Notes: a model not told the origin generated them from the sequence alone. Positions 3,423-23,315 are shown, numbered from the stretch's first letter. The stretch: DNA of 64,000 bases from Candidatus Berkelbacteria bacterium RIFCSPLOWO2_01_FULL_50_28 (GCA_001774395.1 MEZX01000002.1:402108-466107), one strand, 5' to 3'. Numbers and translations are program-made.

Positions 3423-4183
3423 GTAATCTGCGCTCTTCGGTTAAGTTGCTTGGTTCAAGCTATCTCCCACCGAAACCAAAACAAAGCGGCCCATCTCCAT
3501 GGCGGCCTGTTTTTTGGATAGTGCTGTTGATTGCTGGGTTGTTTCTTCTGGCTCGGTTGCCGATCTTTCGCATAAAGGAGATCAGCGTAAGTGGGAGTGC
3601 TAACAAATCGATTAGCGCAAAGTTAGAGCCTCTCCGTGGTGTTTCGATCTTTTCGTCCAAGATAGATGCGTTACAGCGACATGTTCAACGCGAAGATCCT
3701 GGCATCGGATCACTTAACTGTCGACGAGGGGTACCCAGTATCCTAAAGTGTACTGTGGCTTATCGTAAGCCAGTTCTAGCCTGGAAAAATGGGAAAGCGC
3801 AGCTGTTTGTTGATGAAGCGGGCTATGCCTTTGAACGATCGACGGAAGCTCCGTTGGATCTCCCGACCGTTATCGATAGAGCGAAGAGTTCGCCTAAGGC
3901 CGGGGATCGTGTGTTGAGCTCCCAGATCGTCGAGGCCTATCTTGAATTGGATTCGCTTCTTCGAAAATCCAGCCTTAATCCAACAGAATATTTCATTGGT
4001 GAGTCTCTTTTCCAAATTGGGGCTATAATCGAGATCGGCGGTAGAGAGGCACAGGTTTTGTTTAGTATTGCCTCTCCAGCCACCTGGCAAGTAAAGACAC
4101 TCCGAGCTGTCATTGCCAAAAAAGGGAAGACTGCTTTTAGTAACGTCGATCTACGGGTGCCGGGATACGTTTACTACTACTAA
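3419..4183 (+). CDS. ftsQ: cell division protein FtsQ-like (N-terminal TM + POTRA-like)
   Basis: Short cytoplasmic tail, one TM (VFWIVLLIAGLFLLA), then a POTRA-like IKEISVSG segment. Position after murB. Confidence 0.5.
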   Translation: MSNLRSSVKLLGSSYLPPKPKQSGPSPWRPVFWIVLLIAGLFLLARLPIFRIKEISVSGSANKSISAKLEPLRGVSIFSSKIDALQRHVQREDPGIGSLNCRRGVPSILKCTVAYRKPVLAWKNGKAQLFVDEAGYAFERSTEAPLDLPTVIDRAKSSPKAGDRVLSSQIVEAYLELDSLLRKSSLNPTEYFIGESLFQIGAIIEIGGREAQVLFSIASPATWQVKTLRAVIAKKGKTAFSNVDLRVPGYVYYY

Positions 4184-17483: not shown

Positions 17484-18119
17484 ATGCTTGCTCAAATAAT
17501 TTTCTTTCTCGCCTTAGCCCTCCTCGTAGTTCTTATCCTTCGCCGCGCCAACTTGTCGGCGGCATGGATGGAACAGCTGGCATCTCTGGCAATACGGTTC
17601 GGCCAGTTACTAGTTAAATTCGGAGCAAAAACCGGCAACCTGGTCGCGCAACGCGCCCGTCGGGCAACTGGTTTCCAGCGTCTCGGGGACGATAGAGCCA
17701 AACCAGCCGAGGCAAAGATTCCCGCGAACGGTTTCTGGCAGGAAGAAAGTCTGGACGAAAAGCCAGAGCTCTTCTCCAATTTTGACGAAGGCGATGCTCT
17801 TTTCAAGGCTGAAAAATACCAAGAAGCAGAGCGTTTTTTCCTCAAGGCGGCCGCGGCCAAGCCGAGCGATCCGCGAATTTACGCCCGTCTTGGGGTGATC
17901 TATCTTCACGAGAAGAATTACAATGACGCGATCGAATCACTGAAAGTCGCGGTCAAGCTGGATAAGTACAATCCCGGCCGTCATTATAATTTGTCGCTCG
18001 CTTACTGGGGTAACAAGGACAAACAAAAGGCTATTGCCAGTGTTCGCGAAGCGATCTCACTCGACCCGGTGACAGCTAAATACCGCCAATTCCTTGAGCA
18101 ACTGCTCGAAAGCAAGTAA
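17484..18119 (+). CDS. TPR-repeat membrane-anchored protein
   Basis: N-terminal TM, then three or more TPR-like repeats (AEKYQEAERFFLKAAAAKPSDPRIYARLGVIYLHEKNYNDAIESLKVAVKLD). Confidence 0.6.
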   Translation: MLAQIIFFLALALLVVLILRRANLSAAWMEQLASLAIRFGQLLVKFGAKTGNLVAQRARRATGFQRLGDDRAKPAEAKIPANGFWQEESLDEKPELFSNFDEGDALFKAEKYQEAERFFLKAAAAKPSDPRIYARLGVIYLHEKNYNDAIESLKVAVKLDKYNPGRHYNLSLAYWGNKDKQKAIASVREAISLDPVTAKYRQFLEQLLESK

Positions 18120-18214
18120 GGCCTTCGGGCAGCGAACGGCTCGCAACGACTTTGTCGTTGCTAACGGCTGTCAGCTTTCAGCTAGTTCCGGGGCGTGATC
18201 TAATTTGCCGAGAG

Positions 18215-18243
18215 TTGATAGCTGTCAAATCAAGAGCTAAAAT
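18215..18243 (+). promoter_or_regulatory. putative sigma70-type promoter for the tRNA array (TTGATA-17-TAAAAT)
   Basis: TTGATA at 18215-18220, a 17-nt spacer, TAAAAT at 18238-18243, about 55 nt upstream of tRNA-Thr. Confidence 0.4.
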
Positions 18244-18297
18244 GACAGCTTTCGGCTAGATTGCCTAGACAAAGAATGGTAAAATTTGATGGTTAAT

Positions 18298-18369
18298 GCC
18301 GCCTTAGCTCAGTGGTAGAGCAGTTGCTTTGTAAGCATCAGGTCGTCGGTCCGAATCCGACAGGCGGCT
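18298..18369 (+). tRNA. tRNA-Thr (anticodon UGU)
   Basis: Acceptor GCCGCCT/AGGCGGC, D-arm GCTCAGTGGTAGAGC, anticodon loop TTTGTAA, T-arm GTCGG-TCCGAAT-CCGAC. One U-U mismatch in the anticodon stem. Confidence 0.8.
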
Positions 18370-18392
18370 CGGCACATTATTATGGAAGATTT

Positions 18393-18475
18393 GCTGGGGT
18401 ACTCAAGTGGTCAACGAGGGCAGACTGTAAATCTGCTGGCTCCGGCCTTCGTAGGTTCGAATCCTACCCCCAGCA
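18393..18475 (+). tRNA. tRNA-Tyr (anticodon GUA) with long variable arm
   Basis: Acceptor GCTGGGG/CCCCAGC, anticodon loop CTGTAAA, 14-nt variable arm, T-arm GTAGG-TTCGAAT-CCTAC. Confidence 0.8.
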
Positions 18476-18477
18476 CT

Positions 18478-18511
18478 AATTCCAGTTTGGCACTTGTGCC
18501 AATGTGGAATT
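18478..18511. repeat. 34-bp near-perfect palindrome immediately 3' of tRNA-Tyr
   Basis: AATTCCAGTTTGGCACTTGTGCCAATGTGGAATT: 7-bp outer and 5-bp inner arms, no U-tract. Confidence 0.6.
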
Positions 18512-18633
18512 AGTATTGAGGGTCGAACCGCTGCCGCAAGGCAGGAGGTGCGCTAGCGACGAAGCGCAAGCGAAGGAGCTTTCCGGAGCCCGAAGGGCGG
18601 AGGCTTCCTACCCTCAGCACTTCTTGACCACCA

Positions 18634-18663
18634 TTGACTACCAATAGAGCTTCGTACTAATAT
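18634..18663 (+). promoter_or_regulatory. putative promoter of the homing-endonuclease-like gene (TTGACT-18-TAATAT)
   Basis: TTGACT at 18634-18639 and TAATAT at 18658-18663, 18 nt upstream of the ATG. Confidence 0.4.
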
Positions 18664-18680
18664 GTAGTAGGGTAACCAAT

Positions 18681-19340
18681 ATGATCCCAGAAGACTTACT
18701 AAAAGATCTCTACTACTCCAAGCGGAAGTCCTCCTTTGAGATTGGCGAGAGTCTTGGCTGTTCAGTACATAAAGTGAATTACTGGATGGACAAGTTTCAA
18801 CTAGTGCGTCGTTCTCAATCGGAAGCAACTTATGTAAAGAAAAACCCGAACGGGGATCCTTTTGTACTGCGTAAGCCTGGTTCAGTAGATGAGGGCGTCT
18901 TATATGGACTCGGACTAGGACTCTATTGGGGGGAGGGGACAAAAGCGTCAACCTGTGCGATCAGGCTTGGGAACACCGACCCAGAATTGTTAGCGCAGTT
19001 CATTAACTTTTTGTGTCACTTTTATTCCCTGAAAAAGGATACTTTACATTTTAGTCTTCAGCTCTTCCACGACAATAATGTCAACGAATCATTGGATTTT
19101 TGGTGTAAATCACTTAGAATTGATAGGAGGCAATTCTCGAAGCCTGTTTTCTCGCCCTCCCAGTCAAAGGGGACTTATAAACGGAAGGCGCGGTATGGTG
19201 TGGTTACGGTACAATTCAATAACACCAAGCTTCGTAAGATTATTTCTCAACAGCTTGCCAAGATAGCTCAGTTGGTAGAGCACGTCATTGGTAATGACGA
19301 GGTCACGGGTTCGATCCCCGTTCTTGGCTCAGAAAGGTAA
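18681..19340 (+). CDS. LAGLIDADG-like homing endonuclease-like protein with N-terminal HTH; ORF reads through into tRNA-Thr(GGU)
   Basis: The N-terminal SSFEIGESLGCSVHKVNYWMDKF is HTH-like. There is a single LYGLGLGLYWGEGTK motif followed by a DPELLAQFINFL helix. The last 25 codons are the tRNA-Thr sequence itself. Confidence 0.45.
   Translation: MIPEDLLKDLYYSKRKSSFEIGESLGCSVHKVNYWMDKFQLVRRSQSEATYVKKNPNGDPFVLRKPGSVDEGVLYGLGLGLYWGEGTKASTCAIRLGNTDPELLAQFINFLCHFYSLKKDTLHFSLQLFHDNNVNESLDFWCKSLRIDRRQFSKPVFSPSQSKGTYKRKARYGVVTVQFNNTKLRKIISQQLAKIAQLVEHVIGNDEVTGSIPVLGSER
19257..19329 (+). tRNA. tRNA-Thr (anticodon GGU)
   Basis: Acceptor GCCAAGA/TCTTGGC, anticodon loop TTGGTAA, T-arm ACGGG-TTCGATC-CCCGT. 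Confidence 0.8.
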
Positions 19341-19346
19341 AATTAA

Positions 19347-19511
19347 ATGGCAAAAAAATCAGCGCGCGAACAGATCAAAATGGAGTGCACAGTTTGTAAG
19401 ACTTGTAATTACCACTCCGAAAAGAACAAAACCAACACCACCACTCGGGTGGAATTGAAGAAGTTCTGCAAGCTCTGCAAAAAAGTTCAACCGCACAAAG
19501 AAGGAAAGTAA
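19347..19511 (+). CDS. rpmG: 50S ribosomal protein L33 (C4 zinc-binding type), 54 aa - not in the ORF track
   Basis: MAKKSAREQIKMECTVCKTCNYHSEKNKTNTTTRVELKKFCKLCKKVQPHKEGK matches the L33 pattern with two CxxC pairs. Lies directly after the tRNA array as in the canonical thrT-tyrU-...-rpmG neighbourhood. Confidence 0.75.
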   Translation: MAKKSAREQIKMECTVCKTCNYHSEKNKTNTTTRVELKKFCKLCKKVQPHKEGK

Positions 19512-19643
19512 TCATCGCTGAAATCCGGGCAAACCGCAGTAAGAGCCGGTAGTTTGCTTGTATAAAATATTTTTATCTCTATGTTGCTAGTATTAGCAAT
19601 CTTGCTACGTACATTGGCATATCAGCCAGTATAGGAGTTCATT

Positions 19644-21038
19644 TTGAGATTAAAAGCTACACTCGTTTCCATCTGTCCGACTGAGGCGGCTACGCAGGCC
19701 GGTAGGCCTTCGCTTACCCCCGAGCTATTGGCTGCCAGCGGTGCGCGATATTCCCGCAATAACGAAGGCTTGGATGCAATCTTGGCCAAAATCGACTGGA
19801 ACAATCTGGACAAATCCGTGGACGGCATCTTCAGGATGATCGACTACGGACATCAAAGCATTACCGATATGTCGCCAGTGGCGATATTCATCGACGGCGC
19901 GTCGCAATACCTTGTCTATCTGCTCTGGGCCATTTGCCAAGTAGTGGGAGGGCAGGAGTCATCGACTCGGTTTATCCTGATGAATCGAGAGGGTTTGATC
20001 GATCCGCAAACGCTGGGGATTCCCGAAGAGCTTCGTGCCGAATGGTCCGAATACAATGAGCGTGCCTTCAGTGCTTACCATCAAGCCTTGGCTTGTTGGG
20101 AGCACCGACTCGATGAAACCCCGCAGCTTGCTCGCATCCCAACGAGTTTGCTAGAGGCGACTGACGATAAATCGATCGCCGCCGTAGCTCGGATGAAGCG
20201 GAACTACGGTTTCGATCGATCGCGCTACTTCGTGCCGACCGGCATGGGAACCAACGTCATGATGATCATGCCGGCGCGTGAATGGGCTAAGCTCTGTCGG
20301 TATCTCCACTCACATATGCTCTCTGAAGCCCAGCAGCTCGGCGCAATGATCATGGAAGAGCTCAACCTCGTCATCCCGCGCTTGTTGAAACATGCCGTCT
20401 ACGATGACGAAACCGTGGATCAGATCTGGGACGAGTTTGATGAAGATCGGGAGAGTCTCGGTAATCCCAGTGATCTCCTGGAGGTCTACCCGACTCCTTA
20501 TCTCGATATCATGCCTGCTCGAGGTACGACCGAGGAAGATGTCGTCAAGGCGCTCAAACATCACAATAATCGCTACGGTCCATTTGGTCGAGCGATTAGG
20601 AGGATGTCAGTCAGATACGGTGTCGACGCCGTTACCCTTGGAGAAATCCGGGACTTCAACCGGCATCGGACGGGCGAGAAGTTCTGCCCACAGACACCTC
20701 TTGGATTCTATTGTGCTCTCGACCAGTGTCAAGACGACCCGGAGACTCTGAAGATCATCACCGAGCTTCATGAAGTCGGTGTTTCATCTACCAGACAGGC
20801 AGCCAAGCTGCTCAAGGCCGGTGACCCGACCTATGCGTACTGGCTGTTGCTTGGGACGCAGTTCCCTTTCGAACAAACGACCACCGGCAACAAAGCCATC
20901 TACACTTGGGAGCTACGGACCGGTCCGGGCGCGCACTATCGCTACGCCGACCACTTCCGTTGCATCCTCGAACTCTGGTATCAGCAATATCCTCAAACAA
21001 GAGGGCTGATCAAGGAGGGCTTGGCCGAGCCGGAATAA
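19644..21038 (+). CDS. thyX: flavin-dependent thymidylate synthase ThyX-like protein, long tandem-domain form
   Basis: Repeat 1 (AASGARYSRNNEG...IDYGHQSITDMSPVAIFIDGASQYLVYLLWA...ESSTRF) looks ThyX-like but lacks RHR. Repeat 2 carries RHRTGEKF (RHR-x7-S-type motif). TTG start with AGGAG SD 6 nt upstream. Confidence 0.5.
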   Translation: MRLKATLVSICPTEAATQAGRPSLTPELLAASGARYSRNNEGLDAILAKIDWNNLDKSVDGIFRMIDYGHQSITDMSPVAIFIDGASQYLVYLLWAICQVVGGQESSTRFILMNREGLIDPQTLGIPEELRAEWSEYNERAFSAYHQALACWEHRLDETPQLARIPTSLLEATDDKSIAAVARMKRNYGFDRSRYFVPTGMGTNVMMIMPAREWAKLCRYLHSHMLSEAQQLGAMIMEELNLVIPRLLKHAVYDDETVDQIWDEFDEDRESLGNPSDLLEVYPTPYLDIMPARGTTEEDVVKALKHHNNRYGPFGRAIRRMSVRYGVDAVTLGEIRDFNRHRTGEKFCPQTPLGFYCALDQCQDDPETLKIITELHEVGVSSTRQAAKLLKAGDPTYAYWLLLGTQFPFEQTTTGNKAIYTWELRTGPGAHYRYADHFRCILELWYQQYPQTRGLIKEGLAEPE

Positions 21039-21189
21039 GCCACGGCAACTATCGCACCCTTCGTGTCTCCGGACGCGAAGGGTGAATTTAATTAAAAAGC
21101 CCTTCGCAGGACAGGGGCGGTGATTAACCGCAGAAACAGCGCTCAACTTCTTATGGGGCATTTCGTTCCTATTTGCAAGACCAAGTTGA

Positions 21190-21750
21190 ATGACCTACAT
21201 TTGGAGGATGTTTCGTCTCGTCGCCGTTGTTGGTTTAACAGGTTCCGGTAAGTCAGAAGTAGTTAGTGAATTTGAAGGGGCTGGTTTCGCTAAGATTTAT
21301 TTTGGTAGCCTAACTCTGGAGAAACTCAACGAAGAAAAGCTTGAAGTAAACGAAGCTAACGAGCGAATGATGCGCGAAAAATTGCGCGCCGAGCACGGCA
21401 TGAGCGCCTATGCAAAATTGAATATTCCCAAAATCGAGGTCGAAATATCAAAAGGTGATGTGGTTATTGACGGCTTATACTCCTGGGAAGAATACACAGC
21501 TCTGAAAGAAAAGTTTCCTACGATGGAAGTTGTGGCCGTTTACTCTCCACCAGTTCTGCGCTACGAAAGACTTGCCAGCCGTCCCGTTCGTCCGCTCACC
21601 AATGCGGAAGCCCAAAGTCGTGACTCTGCCGAAATCGAAAATCTTCACAAAGCCGGGCCGATCGCGATGGCCGACTACACGATTAGTAACACCAGTACTG
21701 TTGTGGAGTTGAAAAATGCAGTACAACAGATTTTGAATGGCAACAACTAA
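21190..21750 (+). CDS. P-loop nucleotide kinase (dephospho-CoA kinase / dNMP kinase-like)
   Basis: VAVVGLTGSGKSEVVSEFEGAGFAKIY is a CoaE-like Walker A. Small size; context between ThyX and dCMP deaminase. Confidence 0.5.
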   Translation: MTYIWRMFRLVAVVGLTGSGKSEVVSEFEGAGFAKIYFGSLTLEKLNEEKLEVNEANERMMREKLRAEHGMSAYAKLNIPKIEVEISKGDVVIDGLYSWEEYTALKEKFPTMEVVAVYSPPVLRYERLASRPVRPLTNAEAQSRDSAEIENLHKAGPIAMADYTISNTSTVVELKNAVQQILNGNN

Positions 21751-22186
21751 AGACAAAAATAAAAGGGCGAGTTGGGACGAGTATTTCATGGCAATTGCCC
21801 GAGAGGTGGCTACTAGATCAACATGCGATCGTAAAAATGTTGGAGCGGTGCTGGTGCGCGACAAAATGATTCTTACCACCGGGTATAACGGTTCAATTCG
21901 TGGCTTGGCGCACTGCGACGAAGTTGGGCACGAGATCGTTAACGATCACTGCATCCGCACTGTGCACGCTGAAACAAATGCGATCGTTCAGGCCGCCCGC
22001 AACGGAGTTTCAATCGAAGGAGCTACACTCTACATTAACGCCAGCCCGTGCTGGGACTGCTTTAAACTACTGGCCAACGCCGGCATCAAAAAAATTGTCT
22101 TTGGCGAATTTTACCGCGAACAAAGAATTCACGATGTTTCGCTCGAGCTCGGCATCGCCCTGATCGACTTCTCGAAGAAGGTTTAG
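21737..22186 (+). CDS. deoxycytidylate (dCMP) deaminase
   Basis: Cytidine/deoxycytidylate deaminase zinc motifs HAETNAI and PCWDCFK. 149 aa. Confidence 0.8.
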   Translation: MATTKDKNKRASWDEYFMAIAREVATRSTCDRKNVGAVLVRDKMILTTGYNGSIRGLAHCDEVGHEIVNDHCIRTVHAETNAIVQAARNGVSIEGATLYINASPCWDCFKLLANAGIKKIVFGEFYREQRIHDVSLELGIALIDFSKKV

Positions 22187-22201
22187 TAAACTTGACCATA
22201 T

Positions 22202-22274
22202 AGGGGTGTAGCTCAGTTGGTAGAGCGCTTGTCTCCAAAACAAGAGGCCGCAGGTTCAATCCCTGTCACCCCTG
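22202..22274 (+). tRNA. tRNA-Trp (anticodon CCA)
   Basis: Acceptor AGGGGTG/CACCCCT, D-arm GCTCAGTTGGTAGAGC, anticodon loop CTCCAAA, T-arm GCAGG-TTCAATC-CCTGT. Confidence 0.8.
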
Positions 22275-22278
22275 CAAA

Positions 22279-22737
22279 ATGTTTCAAGACGAGCCTTTTC
22301 TTGCTTACGCAAATAATTCTTACGGCTTTTGGAACGCGTCTCAGCAATTAGACGAGAACCGTCACGCGTATGGTCATATAGTTAGTTTCTGGAACTTGCT
22401 TTTCAGTCTAGAGTTGAGCCTAAAGGGTCTGATAATGAAAAACACTAAATCATTATTGATTGGGCACGAACTTAAGAACCTCAGGGTAAAGTGTGCAAAT
22501 TACTTCAATTTTACTGAGCGTGAAAAAAAGGCCATCGACTTTTGGGATCCTTATTACTCTGGGTCGGGTGGATTCAAGTATCCTAACCCTAACTATGAGG
22601 CAAACTACTTTCCTCACGATTTTTCTATACTAAGTCGGCTAGTGCAGAGAATATTAGAGGAAGTCTATGGGGATAATGGACATTGGGAGTTTAAACTATC
22701 TAAAGAACTTGTTGGGTTAGAGCACATACCAGAATGA
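22279..22737 (+). CDS. hypothetical protein, possible HEPN-like helical domain
   Basis: SLELSLKGLIMKNTKSLLIGHELKNL resembles the HEPN helix-2/3 region, and an upstream RHAYGH fits Rx4H. Weak call. Confidence 0.25.
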   Translation: MFQDEPFLAYANNSYGFWNASQQLDENRHAYGHIVSFWNLLFSLELSLKGLIMKNTKSLLIGHELKNLRVKCANYFNFTEREKKAIDFWDPYYSGSGGFKYPNPNYEANYFPHDFSILSRLVQRILEEVYGDNGHWEFKLSKELVGLEHIPE

Positions 22738-23315
22738 AGATTTATCTTATACGTCACGGAGAAACTACTGGAGATCTAGAGAACCGTTACGGCGGCGATT
22801 ACGACGATTCACTAACTGAAGAAGGCTTAAAGCAGGCGGAACAACTCGCAGAAGAACTTAAGGACCTAGGTATCGAGGTAATCTACTCGAGTCCATTAAC
22901 GCGAGCTCGACTTACTACAAGCAAACTATGCGACAAACATCGCTGTAAAGTAGTCACGCTTCCTGGGGTGAAGGAACGTAACTTTTACGGCATTCTGACC
23001 GGAATGACGAAGGAAGAAGCGTTTCAAAAACACGCTGATATAGTTCATTTGCTCGAAGACCGGAACAATACATTGCCGGGTGGCGATTCCTACGGGGATT
23101 TTAGCAGCCGAGTCGAAGAGGCCTGGGATCAAATTACAGACCCTACTTACGAAACAGCGGCTGTTGTGACACACGCTGGTCCCATTCGGTGTATTTTCCG
23201 TGACATACTAGGTAAGGGTGAATTAGGAAAAATTGGTGACTGTTCTTATGTTTATCTTTCCGACGAGTCAGGCGACTGGGAGATTATGAGTGCTAAAGGC
23301 GTTCAGCTTCAGTAA
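22734..23315 (+). CDS. histidine phosphatase superfamily protein (phosphoglycerate mutase family)
   Basis: IYLIRHGETTGD catalytic RHG motif. Overlaps the upstream ORF by 4 nt. Confidence 0.7.
   Translation: MKIYLIRHGETTGDLENRYGGDYDDSLTEEGLKQAEQLAEELKDLGIEVIYSSPLTRARLTTSKLCDKHRCKVVTLPGVKERNFYGILTGMTKEEAFQKHADIVHLLEDRNNTLPGGDSYGDFSSRVEEAWDQITDPTYETAAVVTHAGPIRCIFRDILGKGELGKIGDCSYVYLSDESGDWEIMSAKGVQLQ

What the first reader, a model, noticed from the sequence alone, without database searches (positions are those of the whole stretch)
18298..19511. tRNA-Thr/Tyr/Thr array interrupted by a free-standing LAGLIDADG-like homing-endonuclease gene, with a 34-bp palindrome and a degenerate tRNA-Tyr 3' copy
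- **Context.** In the canonical bacterial arrangement (thrU-tyrU-glyT-thrT-tufB / rpmG-secE-nusG), tRNA-Tyr and the second tRNA-Thr are separated only by tRNA-Gly.
- **What replaces it.** That slot (18476-19256) here holds three elements:
  - a perfect 34-bp hairpin abutting the tRNA-Tyr 3' end;
  - a 17-nt degenerate copy of the tRNA-Tyr T-arm/acceptor 3' end (18605-18621, TTCCTACCCTCAGCACT, 15/17 identical to 18459-18475);
  - a 219-aa ORF with an N-terminal HTH and a single LAGLIDADG-like motif (LYGLGLGLYWGEG), with its own TTGACT-18-TAATAT promoter.
- **Read-through.** The ORF has no stop until after the downstream tRNA-Thr(GGU), so its last 25 codons are the tRNA gene itself.
- **Why it stands out.** Single-motif LAGLIDADG enzymes are normally intron- or intein-encoded. 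A promoter-bearing copy lodged between intact tRNAs, with an att-like partial tRNA duplication, suggests a homing or integrative event at the tRNA-Tyr 3' end and possible loss of tRNA-Gly from this array.
- **Alternative.** It could instead be a degenerate group I intron remnant.
Basis: partly seen in the sequence, partly recalled or inferred. Interest (0 to 1): 0.7.

Follow-up and report, generated by a model that had tools for sequence, protein, structure and literature searches.

The report
Mobile nuclease gene abutting tRNA-Thr
The gene between the tRNAs belongs to a large, unnamed family from tiny "candidate phyla" bacteria: probable selfish DNA-cutting enzymes that always insert exactly in front of one tRNA gene, were recently copied into this genome, and may also spread the tRNA's intron.

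Summary
The three tRNAs and the 219-aa ORF that reads through tRNA-Thr(GGU) are real.

**What the ORF is**
- The YWGEG motif is invariant.
- Pfam matches are sub-threshold only.

**The family**
- More than 1500 Patescibacteria proteins.
- In 77 of 80 species genomes the gene lies directly 5' of tRNA-Thr(GGU), usually with its stop codon inside the tRNA.
- Sister subfamilies abut tRNA-Tyr and tRNA-Met.

**Evidence for mobility**
- A syntenic relative (L204) has Tyr-3 nt-Thr and no ORF.
- The window's cassette (~18622-19256) is 95% identical in DNA to L011, while adjacent rpmG is 70% identical with saturated dS.
- dN/dS is 0.09-0.18.
- 57 of 77 neighbouring tRNA-Thr genes carry an ORF-less intron, and ORF plus intron form one identity island (L029/L056).

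**What is not supported**
- tRNA-Gly loss: the ORF-less Patescibacteria arrays also lack Gly.
- The tRNA-Tyr 3' copy as the footprint of ORF arrival: in close relatives the real tRNA-Tyr ends there, so the extra 144 bp is a later, lineage-specific scar.
- A perfect hairpin: it is imperfect.
- A group I remnant: none was found.

**Verdict:** a free-standing homing-endonuclease-type gene, a new variant of a known kind. Cleavage is untested.

The parts
18298..18370 (+). tRNA-Thr(UGU), first gene of the tRNA array
   Evidence: ARAGORN; Rfam tRNA 67.8 bits. A promoter-like TTGATA-17-TAAAAT lies at 18215-18243.
18393..18477 (+). tRNA-Tyr(GUA), intact and intron-less
   Evidence: ARAGORN; Rfam 58.4 bits. 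It resembles the L009/L010 type of tRNA-Tyr, not the L011 type. In relative L004 this tRNA carries a group I intron (Rfam 61.7 bits).
18475..18514 (+). Imperfect hairpin (10 bp + 6 bp, 2x2 internal loop). It is part of a 28-nt-arm inverted repeat that includes the tRNA-Tyr 3' end.
   Evidence: Fold; inverted repeat I1. It is weakly alignable to the ORF leader of L009. No T-run follows, so it is not a canonical terminator.
18515..18604 (+). G+C-rich structured segment of unknown origin. With the flanking tRNA-Tyr-like bases (18515-18621, 107 nt) G+C is 64%, against 50% for the window.
   Evidence: Composition. MFE -71.4 kcal/mol, z = -3.8 for 18470-18640. Absent from L009, L010, L007, L011 and L012. 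No homologue in 218 fetched loci. No Rfam match.
18605..18621 (+). Degenerate copy of the tRNA-Tyr T-arm/acceptor 3' end. It lies at the position of the real tRNA-Tyr 3' end in close relatives.
   Evidence: 15 of 17 matches, 0.08 expected by chance. Direct repeat D4. Alignments A4/A5 place the real tRNA-Tyr end of L010/L007/L011/L012 here.
18622..19256 (+). Mobile cassette: leader with promoter plus the conserved part of the ORF. It exactly fills the tRNA-Tyr/tRNA-Thr(GGU) spacer.
   Evidence: 90-100% nt identity to L011 here, against 40-75% in the flanks. ORF 94% aa identity against TPR 54%, pol III delta' 38%, L33 72%. ORF dS 0.146 against saturated dS in rpmG. The syntenic empty site in L204 has 3 nt here.
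18634..18663 (+). Promoter-like TTGACT-18-TAATAT of the cassette
   Evidence: Consensus scan (9 of 12). Conserved in L010, L011 and L012. Function not shown.
18681..18845 (+). ORF codons 1-55: helix-turn-helix DNA-binding module
   Evidence: AF2 helices 4-13, 18-25, 29-38 and 46-54. HTH_23 matches in 66 of 87 family members. PHROG 'HNH endonuclease' families match residues 4-52, E about 1e-6.
18876..19265 (+). ORF codons 66-195: single LAGLIDADG-fold domain. Motif G76-L-G-L-G-L-Y-W-G-E85-G86, of which G76, G78 and G80-G86 are invariant.
18681..19340 (+). Whole ORF as it reads in the window (219 aa). The last 25 codons plus the stop are the tRNA-Thr(GGU) gene and 10 nt beyond it.
   Evidence: The same read-through occurs in L007, L010, L011, L012, L035 and L039. 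In most relatives the stop is the TAG at tRNA nt 8-10.
19257..19330 (+). tRNA-Thr(GGU), intron-less. It is the constant 3' neighbour of the family.
   Evidence: ARAGORN; Rfam 72.8 bits. Identical to the tRNA of the ORF-less locus L204 over the 76 nt compared. It differs at about 8 positions from the L011/L010/L012 tRNA.
19347..19511 (+). rpmG (ribosomal protein L33), host flank
   Evidence: ORF. PF00471 on the orthologue in L010. 70-74% aa identity to relatives.

Best explanation
The ORF at 18681-19265(-19340) is a free-standing homing-endonuclease-type gene. It encodes an N-terminal helix-turn-helix DNA-binding module and one LAGLIDADG-fold domain, which would act as a homodimer.

**Family**
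- It belongs to a large Patescibacteria-specific family without a Pfam model.
- Family members insert, together with their own leader and promoter, exactly at the 5' edge of the tRNA-Thr(GGU) gene.
- In the window's clade the cassette fills the 3-nt spacer between tRNA-Tyr and tRNA-Thr(GGU).

**Proposed mechanism (inferred, not shown)**
1. The enzyme recognises the highly conserved tRNA-Thr(GGU) gene or the junction just upstream of it.
2. It cuts ORF-less alleles.
3. Recombinational repair copies the cassette in. This is 'intronless homing'.
4. Insertion replaces the upstream half of the site, which protects the carrier.
5. [quoted passage not shown]

**Expression (inferred)**
- The ORF has no room for its own stop or terminator, so ORF and tRNA must be co-transcribed.
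- RNase P cleavage at the tRNA 5' end would leave a non-stop mRNA. That would keep expression of the nuclease low.

**The window's copy and the extra 144 bp**
- The window's copy arrived recently from an L011/L010-like donor.
- The 144 bp at 18478-18621 (hairpin, G+C-rich segment, partial tRNA-Tyr 3' end) are a recombination scar of that or a later event.
For: **Fold and motif**
- AF2 model with pLDDT 91.
- 25 of 87 members give weak LAGLIDADG_3 matches in the same register.
- Y-W-x-E-G is kept in three subfamilies that share less than 32% identity.
- The HTH is of a type shared with phage HNH endonuclease families.

**Site specificity**
- In 77 of 80 GTDB species loci the ORF is followed on the same strand by tRNA-Thr(GGU), whatever lies upstream.
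- In roughly half of those loci the stop codon is the TAG at tRNA nt 8-10.
- Subfamily 2 abuts tRNA-Tyr (L080, L218). Subfamily 3 abuts tRNA-Met.

**Mobility**
- L204 is syntenic (pol III delta'-TPR-Thr-Tyr-Thr-rpmG-Trp), has an identical tRNA-Thr(GGU) and has no ORF.
- Other empty sites: L120, L126, L185, L206, L209.
- Window against L011: ORF 95% nt and 94% aa identity, dS 0.146. Flanks: TPR 54%, delta' 38%, L33 72% aa; rpmG 70% nt with saturated dS.
- A second island in L029/L056 spans the ORF plus the intron-containing tRNA.
- L164 holds a truncated copy.
- In L175 a GIY-YIG nuclease (Pfam E 2e-16) occupies the same slot with the same stop-in-tRNA layout.

**Selection**
- dN/dS 0.08-0.18.

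**Intron link**
- 57 of 77 ORF-adjacent tRNA-Thr(GGU) genes carry a 171-229-nt intron.
- By comparison, PMC13011429 reports three tRNA-Thr introns in its survey of 95 complete Patescibacteria genomes.

**Concepts**
- Intronless and collaborative homing: PMC3984707, PMC2790892, PMC6083498.
Against: - No cleavage activity or target site is shown.
- No Pfam, NCBIfam or PDB sequence match reaches threshold. hhalign against I-CreI gave nothing.
- All 80 best copies are intact and under purifying selection, which also fits a host function.
- The window's tRNA-Thr(GGU) is identical to that of the ORF-less L204. A target lying wholly inside the tRNA would therefore be cut in the carrier too, so the junction-target idea is an inference made to resolve this.
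- The identity island could have arisen by ordinary homologous recombination using the conserved tRNA genes as arms, without any nuclease.
- The non-stop-mRNA idea is untested.
Confidence: 0.6

Rival explanations
1. A domesticated HTH-LAGLIDADG DNA-binding protein (WhiA-like logic) that serves the host, for example by regulating the tRNA/rpmG-secE-nusG region. On this reading it is inherited mostly vertically and only occasionally exchanged.
For: - An HTH is present.
- dN/dS is 0.08-0.18 and there are no internal stops in 80 loci.
- The position next to a translation-related gene cluster is fixed.
Against: - Distribution is patchy. Syntenic ORF-less relatives exist (L204, L120, L126, L185, L206, L209), and only 432 loci were found among GTDB species genomes.
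- The cassette is far younger than its flanks.
- The acidic residue of the motif is invariant across subfamilies. WhiA has lost it (my knowledge of WhiA; not tested here).
- The constant neighbour is the tRNA, not the downstream operon (L005 and L218 contexts).
- Another nuclease family uses the same slot.
Confidence: 0.15
2. A trans-acting maturase that helps the 'divergent' group I intron of tRNA-Thr(GGU), and perhaps other tRNA introns, to splice. On this reading its position next to the tRNA reflects co-expression with its RNA substrate.
For: - 57 of 77 neighbouring tRNA-Thr(GGU) genes have the intron.
- These introns are too divergent for RF00028 (PMC13011429).
- A LAGLIDADG maturase is known in bacteria (Thermotoga, cited in PMC3984707).
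- ORF and intron travel together.
Against: - The window and its whole clade (L007, L009, L010, L011, L012) have intron-less tRNA-Thr and tRNA-Tyr. Even so, the ORF is intact, under purifying selection and recently transferred without an intron.
- There is no group I intron anywhere in the 64-kb window.
- An N-terminal HTH and the sister subfamilies next to intron-less tRNAs (L218, L110) point to DNA recognition.
- The two roles are not exclusive: many LAGLIDADG proteins are both endonuclease and maturase.
Confidence: 0.1
3. The region 18478-18621 is the remnant of an integrative element that recombined site-specifically with the 3' end of tRNA-Tyr (an attL/attR-like 16-17-nt direct repeat). 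On this reading the ORF is an unrelated neighbour.
For: - A direct repeat of the tRNA-Tyr 3' end with 144-nt spacing, beyond chance.
- The intervening DNA is foreign in composition, absent from relatives and without homologues.
Against: - No integrase or any other gene lies between the repeats, which are separated by only 127 nt.
- The downstream copy also lacks 4 nt of the T-loop, judged by eye.
- The left part of the insert is an inverted duplication of the tRNA end itself. That looks more like aberrant break repair or template switching than att recombination.
- This rival explains only the scar, not the ORF.
Confidence: 0.1
4. A degenerate group I intron, or a disrupted tRNA gene, whose ORF has been left stranded.
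For: - Relatives carry group I introns in both flanking tRNAs (L004: Rfam 61.7 bits in tRNA-Tyr).
- The segment at 18515-18604 is strongly structured.
Against: - Rfam at E <= 10 finds no intron core in 17500-23000, and nothing across the whole window.
- Both flanking tRNAs are intact.
- Across the family the ORF lies outside the tRNA exons, 5' of exon 1, and never within the intron.
Confidence: 0.02

Closest known systems
Free-standing homing endonucleases of T4-like phages and cyanophages (SegB in the T4 tRNA gene cluster, mobE/I-TevIII, F-CphI next to intron-containing psbA): 'intronless' and 'collaborative/trans' homing
   Same: - The gene lies between conserved genes, not in an intron or intein.
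- It has its own leader.
- Presence/absence polymorphism with a precise empty site.
- An island of high identity in diverged flanks.
[quoted passage not shown]
- Distant relatives sit in tRNA arrays of 100-500-kb phage contigs.
   Different: - The catalytic fold is LAGLIDADG-type, not GIY-YIG, HNH or EndoVII-type.
- The host is a cellular chromosome (Patescibacteria).
- The ORF is welded to the 5' end of a tRNA gene and borrows its stop codon from the tRNA.
- Cleavage and target are not demonstrated.
Single-motif (homodimeric) LAGLIDADG homing endonucleases such as I-CreI, I-CeuI, I-Vdi141I, I-CvuI
   Same: - The motif helix ends in an invariant acidic residue followed by Gly (G-E85-G).
- The domain size is similar.
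   Different: - Those enzymes are intron-encoded and lack an extra HTH.
- There is no significant sequence similarity.
- The strand topology in the model is less clearly alpha-beta-beta-alpha-beta-beta-alpha.
- Pfam LAGLIDADG_3 matches are only sub-threshold (12-16 bits in the ten members listed, against a cut-off of 22.5).
WhiA/DUF199 (domesticated LAGLIDADG + HTH transcription factor)
   Different: - WhiA has two degenerate LAGLIDADG domains followed by a C-terminal HTH. It is near-universal in Gram-positive bacteria and has lost the catalytic acidic residues (my knowledge of the family).
- Here there is one domain, an N-terminal HTH, a conserved acidic residue, patchy distribution and lateral transfer.
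LAGLIDADG endonucleases in rRNA introns of CPR/Patescibacteria (Tsurumaki et al. 2024, cited in PMC13011429)
   Same: Same phylum, same enzyme superfamily, and a target in a stable-RNA gene.
   Different: - Those are intron-encoded and detectable by Pfam.
- PMC13011429 states that most tRNA introns lack endonuclease genes and infers limited mobility.
- The gene described here lies outside the intron, upstream of exon 1, so an intron-internal search would miss it.
Mitochondrial 'tRNA punctuation' (mRNA ends defined by excision of an abutting tRNA)
   Same: The ORF abuts a tRNA with no spacer, and tRNA 5' processing would define the 3' end of the mRNA.
   Different: - Here processing would remove the stop codon rather than create it.
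- This is purely an inference from the gene layout.

Membership tests
LAGLIDADG homing endonuclease superfamily | LAGLIDADG (alpha-beta-beta-alpha-beta-beta-alpha) fold | tested here: met
   [not shown]
LAGLIDADG homing endonuclease superfamily | Motif helix ending in a conserved acidic residue (metal ligand) followed by Gly | tested here: met
   G76, G78 and G80-L-Y-W-G-E85-G86 are invariant in 87 sequences. Y-W-[GSA]-E-G is kept in subfamilies 2 and 3. Register with Pfam LAGLIDADG_3 positions 9-47.
LAGLIDADG homing endonuclease superfamily | Significant match to a curated LAGLIDADG profile (Pfam LAGLIDADG_1/2/3) | tested here: not met
   No hit for the window protein. 25 of 87 relatives hit LAGLIDADG_3 only below threshold (best E 9.6e-4; 12-16 bits in the ten members listed, against a cut-off of 22.5). 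No PDB sequence hit.
LAGLIDADG homing endonuclease superfamily | Site-specific double-strand cleavage of a long (14-40 bp) target leaving 4-nt 3' overhangs | not testable with these tools
   This needs purified protein and substrate DNA (the L204-type junction and tRNA-Thr(GGU) genes with and without the intron).
Free-standing homing endonuclease gene (intronless homing) | Located outside any intron or intein, between host genes | tested here: met
   No intron model in or around the ORF. The ORF lies between intact tRNAs. The same holds in 80 loci.
Free-standing homing endonuclease gene (intronless homing) | Presence/absence polymorphism at one precise site among related genomes | tested here: met
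   L204 is syntenic, has an identical tRNA-Thr(GGU), and has a 3-nt Tyr/Thr spacer instead of the cassette. Also L120, L126, L185, L206 and L209.
Free-standing homing endonuclease gene (intronless homing) | Evidence of lateral spread (gene younger than its flanks; co-conversion of adjacent markers) | tested here: met
   Window/L011: ORF 95% nt identity with dS 0.146, against rpmG 70% nt identity with saturated dS. L029/L056: the island covers the ORF plus the intron-containing tRNA. Nuclease-independent recombination is not excluded.
Intron-encoded homing endonuclease / group I intron remnant | ORF embedded in a group I intron (ribozyme core on both sides) | tested here: not met
   Rfam Intron_gpI is absent at E <= 10 in 17500-23000. 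In relatives the intron lies downstream, inside the tRNA, and holds no ORF.
tRNA-targeting integrative element (integrase + att repeats) | Tyrosine or serine integrase gene next to a direct repeat of the tRNA 3' end | tested here: not met
   A direct repeat is present, but only 127 nt lie between the copies and they hold no ORF. The duplication is absent from close relatives that already have the ORF.
WhiA-like domesticated LAGLIDADG regulator | Two tandem degenerate LAGLIDADG domains plus a C-terminal HTH; broad vertical conservation | tested here: not met
   The model shows one domain and an N-terminal HTH. Distribution is patchy, with empty sites and lateral transfer.

The most novel reading that the evidence does not exclude
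A previously unrecognised superfamily of HTH-LAGLIDADG endonucleases parasitises tRNA genes of Patescibacteria, with distant relatives in the tRNA arrays of large phage contigs.

- Each subfamily is welded to the 5' end of 'its' tRNA gene (Thr-GGU, Tyr-GUA or Met-CAU).
- Each borrows its stop codon from the tRNA's conserved TAG at nt 8-10 or from a TAG in the D-loop.
- RNase P processing would therefore convert its mRNA into a non-stop message, which throttles the nuclease.
- The tRNA-Thr subfamily would be the missing mobility factor, and possibly the maturase, for the ORF-less 'divergent' group I introns of tRNA-Thr(GGU). That would explain how introns thought to be immobile spread in these reduced genomes.
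Probability: 0.3. Interest if true: 0.8.

Novelty: new variant of a known kind. Interest (0 to 1): 0.62.

Why it matters
**A large unnamed family.** It names a function for a protein family of more than 1500 clusters in a major, poorly understood bacterial lineage. The family has no Pfam or NCBIfam model and is annotated 'hypothetical'.

**Intron mobility in Patescibacteria.** A recent survey (PMC13011429) concluded that Patescibacteria tRNA introns mostly lack endonuclease genes and are therefore rarely mobile. Here the tRNA-Thr(GGU) intron is usually accompanied by a LAGLIDADG-type gene just outside exon 1, and the two move together. That would be a chromosomal example of collaborative homing, so far known from phages.

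**An unusual gene layout.** A protein gene whose stop codon lies inside a tRNA gene makes a testable prediction about coupling between tRNA processing and nuclease expression.

**Possible applications.** Compact HTH-plus-LAGLIDADG enzymes that recognise near-universal tRNA gene sequences could be useful meganuclease scaffolds.

**Annotation.** The read-through tails (for example the 25 extra codons here) are artefacts of the layout and should not be taken as protein sequence.

Tried and rejected
**Sequence and profile searches on the window ORF**
- Pfam and NCBIfam: nothing.
- PDB sequence search with the single protein and with the family profile: nothing relevant.

**Structure search**

**RNA searches**
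- Rfam for a group I intron or tRNA remnant in 18476-18680 and across the whole window: none.
- Rfam also fails on the tRNA-Thr introns of 12 relatives and gives only 26.9 bits in L004. Their group I nature therefore rests on PMC13011429.

**Homologues of the G+C-rich insert (18478-18625)**
- None elsewhere in the window (on the overlapping 18477-18680).
- None in 218 loci apart from L008, which is the window's own sequence.

**Idea: the cassette is bounded by inverted copies of the tRNA D-arm (18638-18651 against 19265-19278)**
- Not above shuffled controls, and not general across loci.
- Only L005/L006/L030, L039 and L065 have a real inverted copy of the tRNA-Thr 3' end upstream.

**Idea: tRNA-Gly was displaced**
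- Rejected. Gly is absent from ORF-less Patescibacteria arrays.

**Paralogues in the window**
- None. The ORF next to tRNA-Pro looks like a polytopic membrane protein (translation only), and its syntenic orthologues in L001 and L008 carry Pfam Peptidase_M50.

**Limits on what could be measured**
- Prevalence among all Patescibacteria could not be measured. The genome scan is pattern-based and lists at most 80 loci.
- The metagenome scan required an uninterrupted anticodon arm, so it is biased towards intron-less alleles.
Full report
**1. What is in the window**

ARAGORN and Rfam agree on tRNA-Thr(UGU) at 18298-18370, tRNA-Tyr(GUA) at 18393-18476 and tRNA-Thr(GGU) at 19257-19330. A 54-aa rpmG-like ORF follows at 19347-19511.

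An ATG ORF starts at 18681 and has no stop until 19340. Its last 84 nt (25 codons plus the stop) overlap the tRNA-Thr(GGU) gene.

A consensus promoter match, TTGACT-18-TAATAT, lies at 18634-18663.

The 17-nt copy of the tRNA-Tyr 3' end at 18605-18621 is real. It matches 15 of 17 positions and is the only other match in 64 kb, against 0.08 expected by chance. Its true partner is 18461-18477.

The 'perfect 34-bp hairpin' is imperfect: 10 bp + 6 bp with a 2x2 internal loop, at 18475-18514. It is part of a 28-nt-arm inverted repeat that includes the tRNA-Tyr end.

**2. What the protein is**

Profile and sequence searches find little.
- Pfam and NCBIfam find nothing.
- PHROGs matches only the N-terminal 50 residues, to the HTH part of phage 'HNH endonuclease' families.
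- PDB sequence searches, the family profile, and hhalign against I-CreI all fail.

Homologue searches show a large family.
- The first search returned 1518 proteins, with named sources all Patescibacteria. They are typically 194-200 aa and 45-55% identical to the query.
- Invariant residues include G76, G78 and G80-L-Y-W-G-E85-G86, together with N98, P101, Q127, W141 and G173.

Structure prediction gives the clearest assignment.
- With an 87-sequence alignment, AlphaFold2 gives a confident model (pLDDT 91, pTM 0.78). It has a three-helix HTH at residues 4-38 and an alpha/beta domain at residues 69-194.
- Foldseek against the PDB is uninformative.

Weak sequence signals agree with this.
- 25 of 87 family members give sub-threshold Pfam LAGLIDADG_3 matches.
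- These always align residues ~80-115 (YWGEG...RLGNTDPxL) to profile positions 9-47.

I therefore accept 'HTH + one LAGLIDADG-type domain'. The similarity is remote and catalysis is untested.

**3. The genomic rule of the family**

The read-through into the tRNA is not a peculiarity of this window.
- Many homologues end in tRNA-encoded residues, for example ...AQLVEH...GS, or LPM* from cTG-CCG-ATG-TAG.
- A scan of one genome per GTDB species found 432 loci.

In the 80 best loci:
- The ORF is followed on the same strand by tRNA-Thr(GGU) in 77. The other three are at contig ends or unresolved.
- The ORF stop lies exactly 10 nt inside the tRNA in roughly half of them. It is the TAG formed by tRNA nt 8-10.
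- In several loci the stop is 21 nt inside (the D-loop TAG). In the window's clade the frame misses both and runs through the tRNA.
- The upstream neighbour varies: Thr-UGU, Tyr, Phe, Leu, Asp, protein genes, or inverted tRNAs.

The conserved unit is therefore ORF plus tRNA-Thr(GGU).

Two sister subfamilies obey the same rule at other tRNAs.
- A ~206-aa group (369 hits, 32% identical to the window protein) abuts tRNA-Tyr in L080 and, in an unrelated context, in L218.
- A third group, with an ALYWSEGSK motif, abuts tRNA-Met(CAU) with the same 10-nt or a 23-nt overlap.

Distant relatives (23-29% identity) lie inside tRNA arrays of 100-500-kb viral contigs.

**4. Link to tRNA introns**

- In 57 of 77 loci the adjacent tRNA-Thr(GGU) is split after GGT (position 36/37) by a 171-229-nt intron.
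- ARAGORN mislabels many of these tRNAs as Arg(GCG) or His(GUG), as PMC13011429 describes.
- Rfam's group I model does not detect these introns. PMC13011429 classifies them as 'divergent group I introns'. It reports three tRNA-Thr introns in its survey of 95 complete Patescibacteria genomes, and notes that most tRNA introns lack endonuclease genes.
- The intron is therefore strongly enriched next to this ORF.
- The window's tRNAs are intron-less, and the 64-kb window holds no group I intron.

**5. Evidence that the cassette is mobile**

(a) Empty sites.
- A metagenome scan for the tRNA-Thr(GGU) anticodon arm recovered Patescibacteria-type arrays without the ORF.
- L204 is fully syntenic with the window: pol III delta', TPR protein, Thr-UGU, Tyr, Thr-GGU, rpmG, Trp.
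- Its tRNA-Thr(GGU) is identical to the window's over the 76 nt compared, and it has only 'CAA' between tRNA-Tyr and tRNA-Thr.
- L120, L126, L185, L206 and L209 are similar.

(b) Identity island.

| Window against L011 | aa identity | nt identity | dS |
|---|---|---|---|
| ORF | 94% | 95% | 0.146 |
| TPR protein | 54% | - | - |
| pol III delta' | 38% | - | - |
| L33 / rpmG | 72% | 70% | saturated |

- The island runs from about 18625 to the ORF/tRNA junction.
- The window's tRNA-Thr is of the L204 type and differs at about 8 positions from the L011 type.
- The window's tRNA-Tyr and tRNA-Thr(UGU) are L009-like, not L011-like.

(c) A second island. L029/L056 are 85-100% identical across the ORF plus the whole intron-containing tRNA, with unalignable upstream DNA. 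ORF and intron therefore move together.

(d) Decay and competition.
- L164 retains only the C-terminal half of the ORF.
- In L175 a GIY-YIG nuclease (Pfam E 2e-16) fills the same Tyr/Thr slot and also stops at the tRNA's TAG.

(e) Selection. The ORF is under purifying selection, with dN/dS 0.08-0.18.

**6. The tRNA-Tyr copy, the hairpin and tRNA-Gly**

- In L010 (92% aa identity), L007 and L012 (82%) and L011 (94%), the real tRNA-Tyr ends exactly where the window has the degenerate copy. The same leader, promoter and ORF follow.
- The 144 bp at 18478-18621 are therefore a lineage-specific addition between an intact tRNA-Tyr and the cassette. They are not the footprint of ORF arrival.
- The addition has three parts:
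  - An inverted duplication of the tRNA-Tyr end plus 16 nt (the hairpin).
  - A G+C-rich structured segment with no homologue anywhere I could search.
  - A partial tRNA-Tyr 3' end that lacks 4 nt of the T-loop.
- I read it as a recombination or repair scar. It may have been made when an L011/L010-like cassette with a piece of donor tRNA-Tyr replaced an older resident. This reading is an inference.
- tRNA-Gly is absent from the ORF-less Patescibacteria arrays. The Thr-Tyr-Gly-Thr order appeared only in other contexts (L094, L123, L135, L161).

**7. Mechanism proposed**

Shown:
- The fold class, the invariant motif, the fixed insertion point at the tRNA 5' edge, the empty sites, the recent lateral transfer, the co-transfer with the intron, and the purifying selection.

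Inferred:
- The protein is an active homodimeric LAGLIDADG endonuclease with an auxiliary HTH. It recognises the conserved tRNA-Thr(GGU) gene or its upstream junction and cuts ORF-less alleles. Repair then copies the cassette in (intronless homing; PMC3984707).
- The carrier and the empty allele share an identical tRNA. Part of the site must therefore lie upstream of tRNA +1 and be destroyed by insertion. In intron-bearing lineages the intron may interrupt the site instead.
- The ORF-less intron hitch-hikes by co-conversion. This is the trans or collaborative homing known from T4 mobE/I-TevIII and cyanophage F-CphI (PMC2790892, PMC6083498).
- No spacer separates the ORF from the tRNA, so they must be co-transcribed. 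RNase P cleavage would then remove the stop codon and yield a non-stop mRNA, which would limit nuclease expression.

None of the inferred steps is demonstrated. The identity islands could also arise by ordinary recombination through the conserved tRNA flanks.

**8. Comparison and verdict**

- The element works like the free-standing homing endonuclease genes of phages, and it belongs structurally to the LAGLIDADG superfamily.
- It fails curated-profile membership and is not intron-encoded. It is not WhiA-like in architecture and is not an integrase-type island.
- I found no paper describing this family or its tRNA-abutting layout. PMC13011429, the closest paper, does not mention it.
- I rate it a new variant of a known kind. 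The att-like, tRNA-Gly-loss and intron-remnant ideas are not.

Noticed in passing
L175 (metagenome contig Ga0210057-type locus; spacer between tRNA-Tyr and tRNA-Thr(GGU), oriented coordinates ~1138-1523): A 97-aa GIY-YIG nuclease gene (Pfam GIY-YIG E 2e-16, on the 91 residues from its first Met) occupies the same Tyr/Thr(GGU) slot as the LAGLIDADG-type ORF. It also ends ...AMPL* with its stop at the TAG of tRNA nt 8-10. The slot looks like a hot spot for different nuclease families.
   Followed up: partly
L080 3303-3956; L218 1501-2133; L110, L165, L200 (oriented coordinates): Sister subfamilies of the HTH-LAGLIDADG protein sit directly 5' of tRNA-Tyr(GUA) (369 database hits) and of tRNA-Met(CAU). 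Their stop codons again lie 10-23 nt inside the tRNA.
   Followed up: partly
L211-L216 (IMG/VR contigs of 100-500 kb): Distant relatives (23-29% identity) of the protein lie inside tRNA gene arrays of very large viral contigs. Examples: between the Asn and Glu tRNAs (L211/L212), and between Thr(GGU) and Gly in a 12-tRNA array (L216).
   Followed up: no
L005/L006/L030 ~3937-3960; L039; L065 (40-70 nt upstream of the ORF start): In these loci the ORF is preceded by an inverted 17-23-nt copy of the 3' end (acceptor and T-arm) of the downstream tRNA-Thr(GGU). This is far above shuffled controls. Other loci, including the window, lack it.
   Followed up: partly
L004 3632-3926 (GCA_004321885.1): tRNA-Tyr(GUA) just upstream of the ORF is split in the anticodon loop by a ~212-nt canonical group I intron (Rfam Intron_gpI 61.7 bits). 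In this genome both tRNAs flanking the ORF carry introns.
   Followed up: partly
window 19512-22200: In syntenic relatives (L007, L009, L204) tRNA-Trp follows tRNA-Thr(GGU)/rpmG within ~300-450 nt. In the window ~2.7 kb intervene. They hold a 464-aa ThyX-like ORF (Pfam Thy1 E 1e-9, 19644-21038) and a 186-aa P-loop kinase-like ORF (AAA_18, 21190-21750). Neither has a counterpart in any fetched locus. This may be a second insertion into the same tRNA/ribosomal-protein cluster.
   Followed up: partly
L008 3585-3760 versus window 19265-19350: A metagenome contig is identical to the window for more than 3.6 kb and then diverges inside the T-arm of tRNA-Thr(GGU). It continues into a tRNA-Thr(CGU) instead of rpmG. 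This is either strain-level rearrangement at the tRNA or an assembly chimera.
   Followed up: no
window 18515-18604: A 90-nt G+C-rich segment with GNRA-like hairpins (for example CUGCC-GCAA-GGCAG). It folds strongly (z = -3.8 for 18470-18640). It has no Rfam match and no homologue in the window or in 218 related loci. Its origin and function are unknown.
   Followed up: partly
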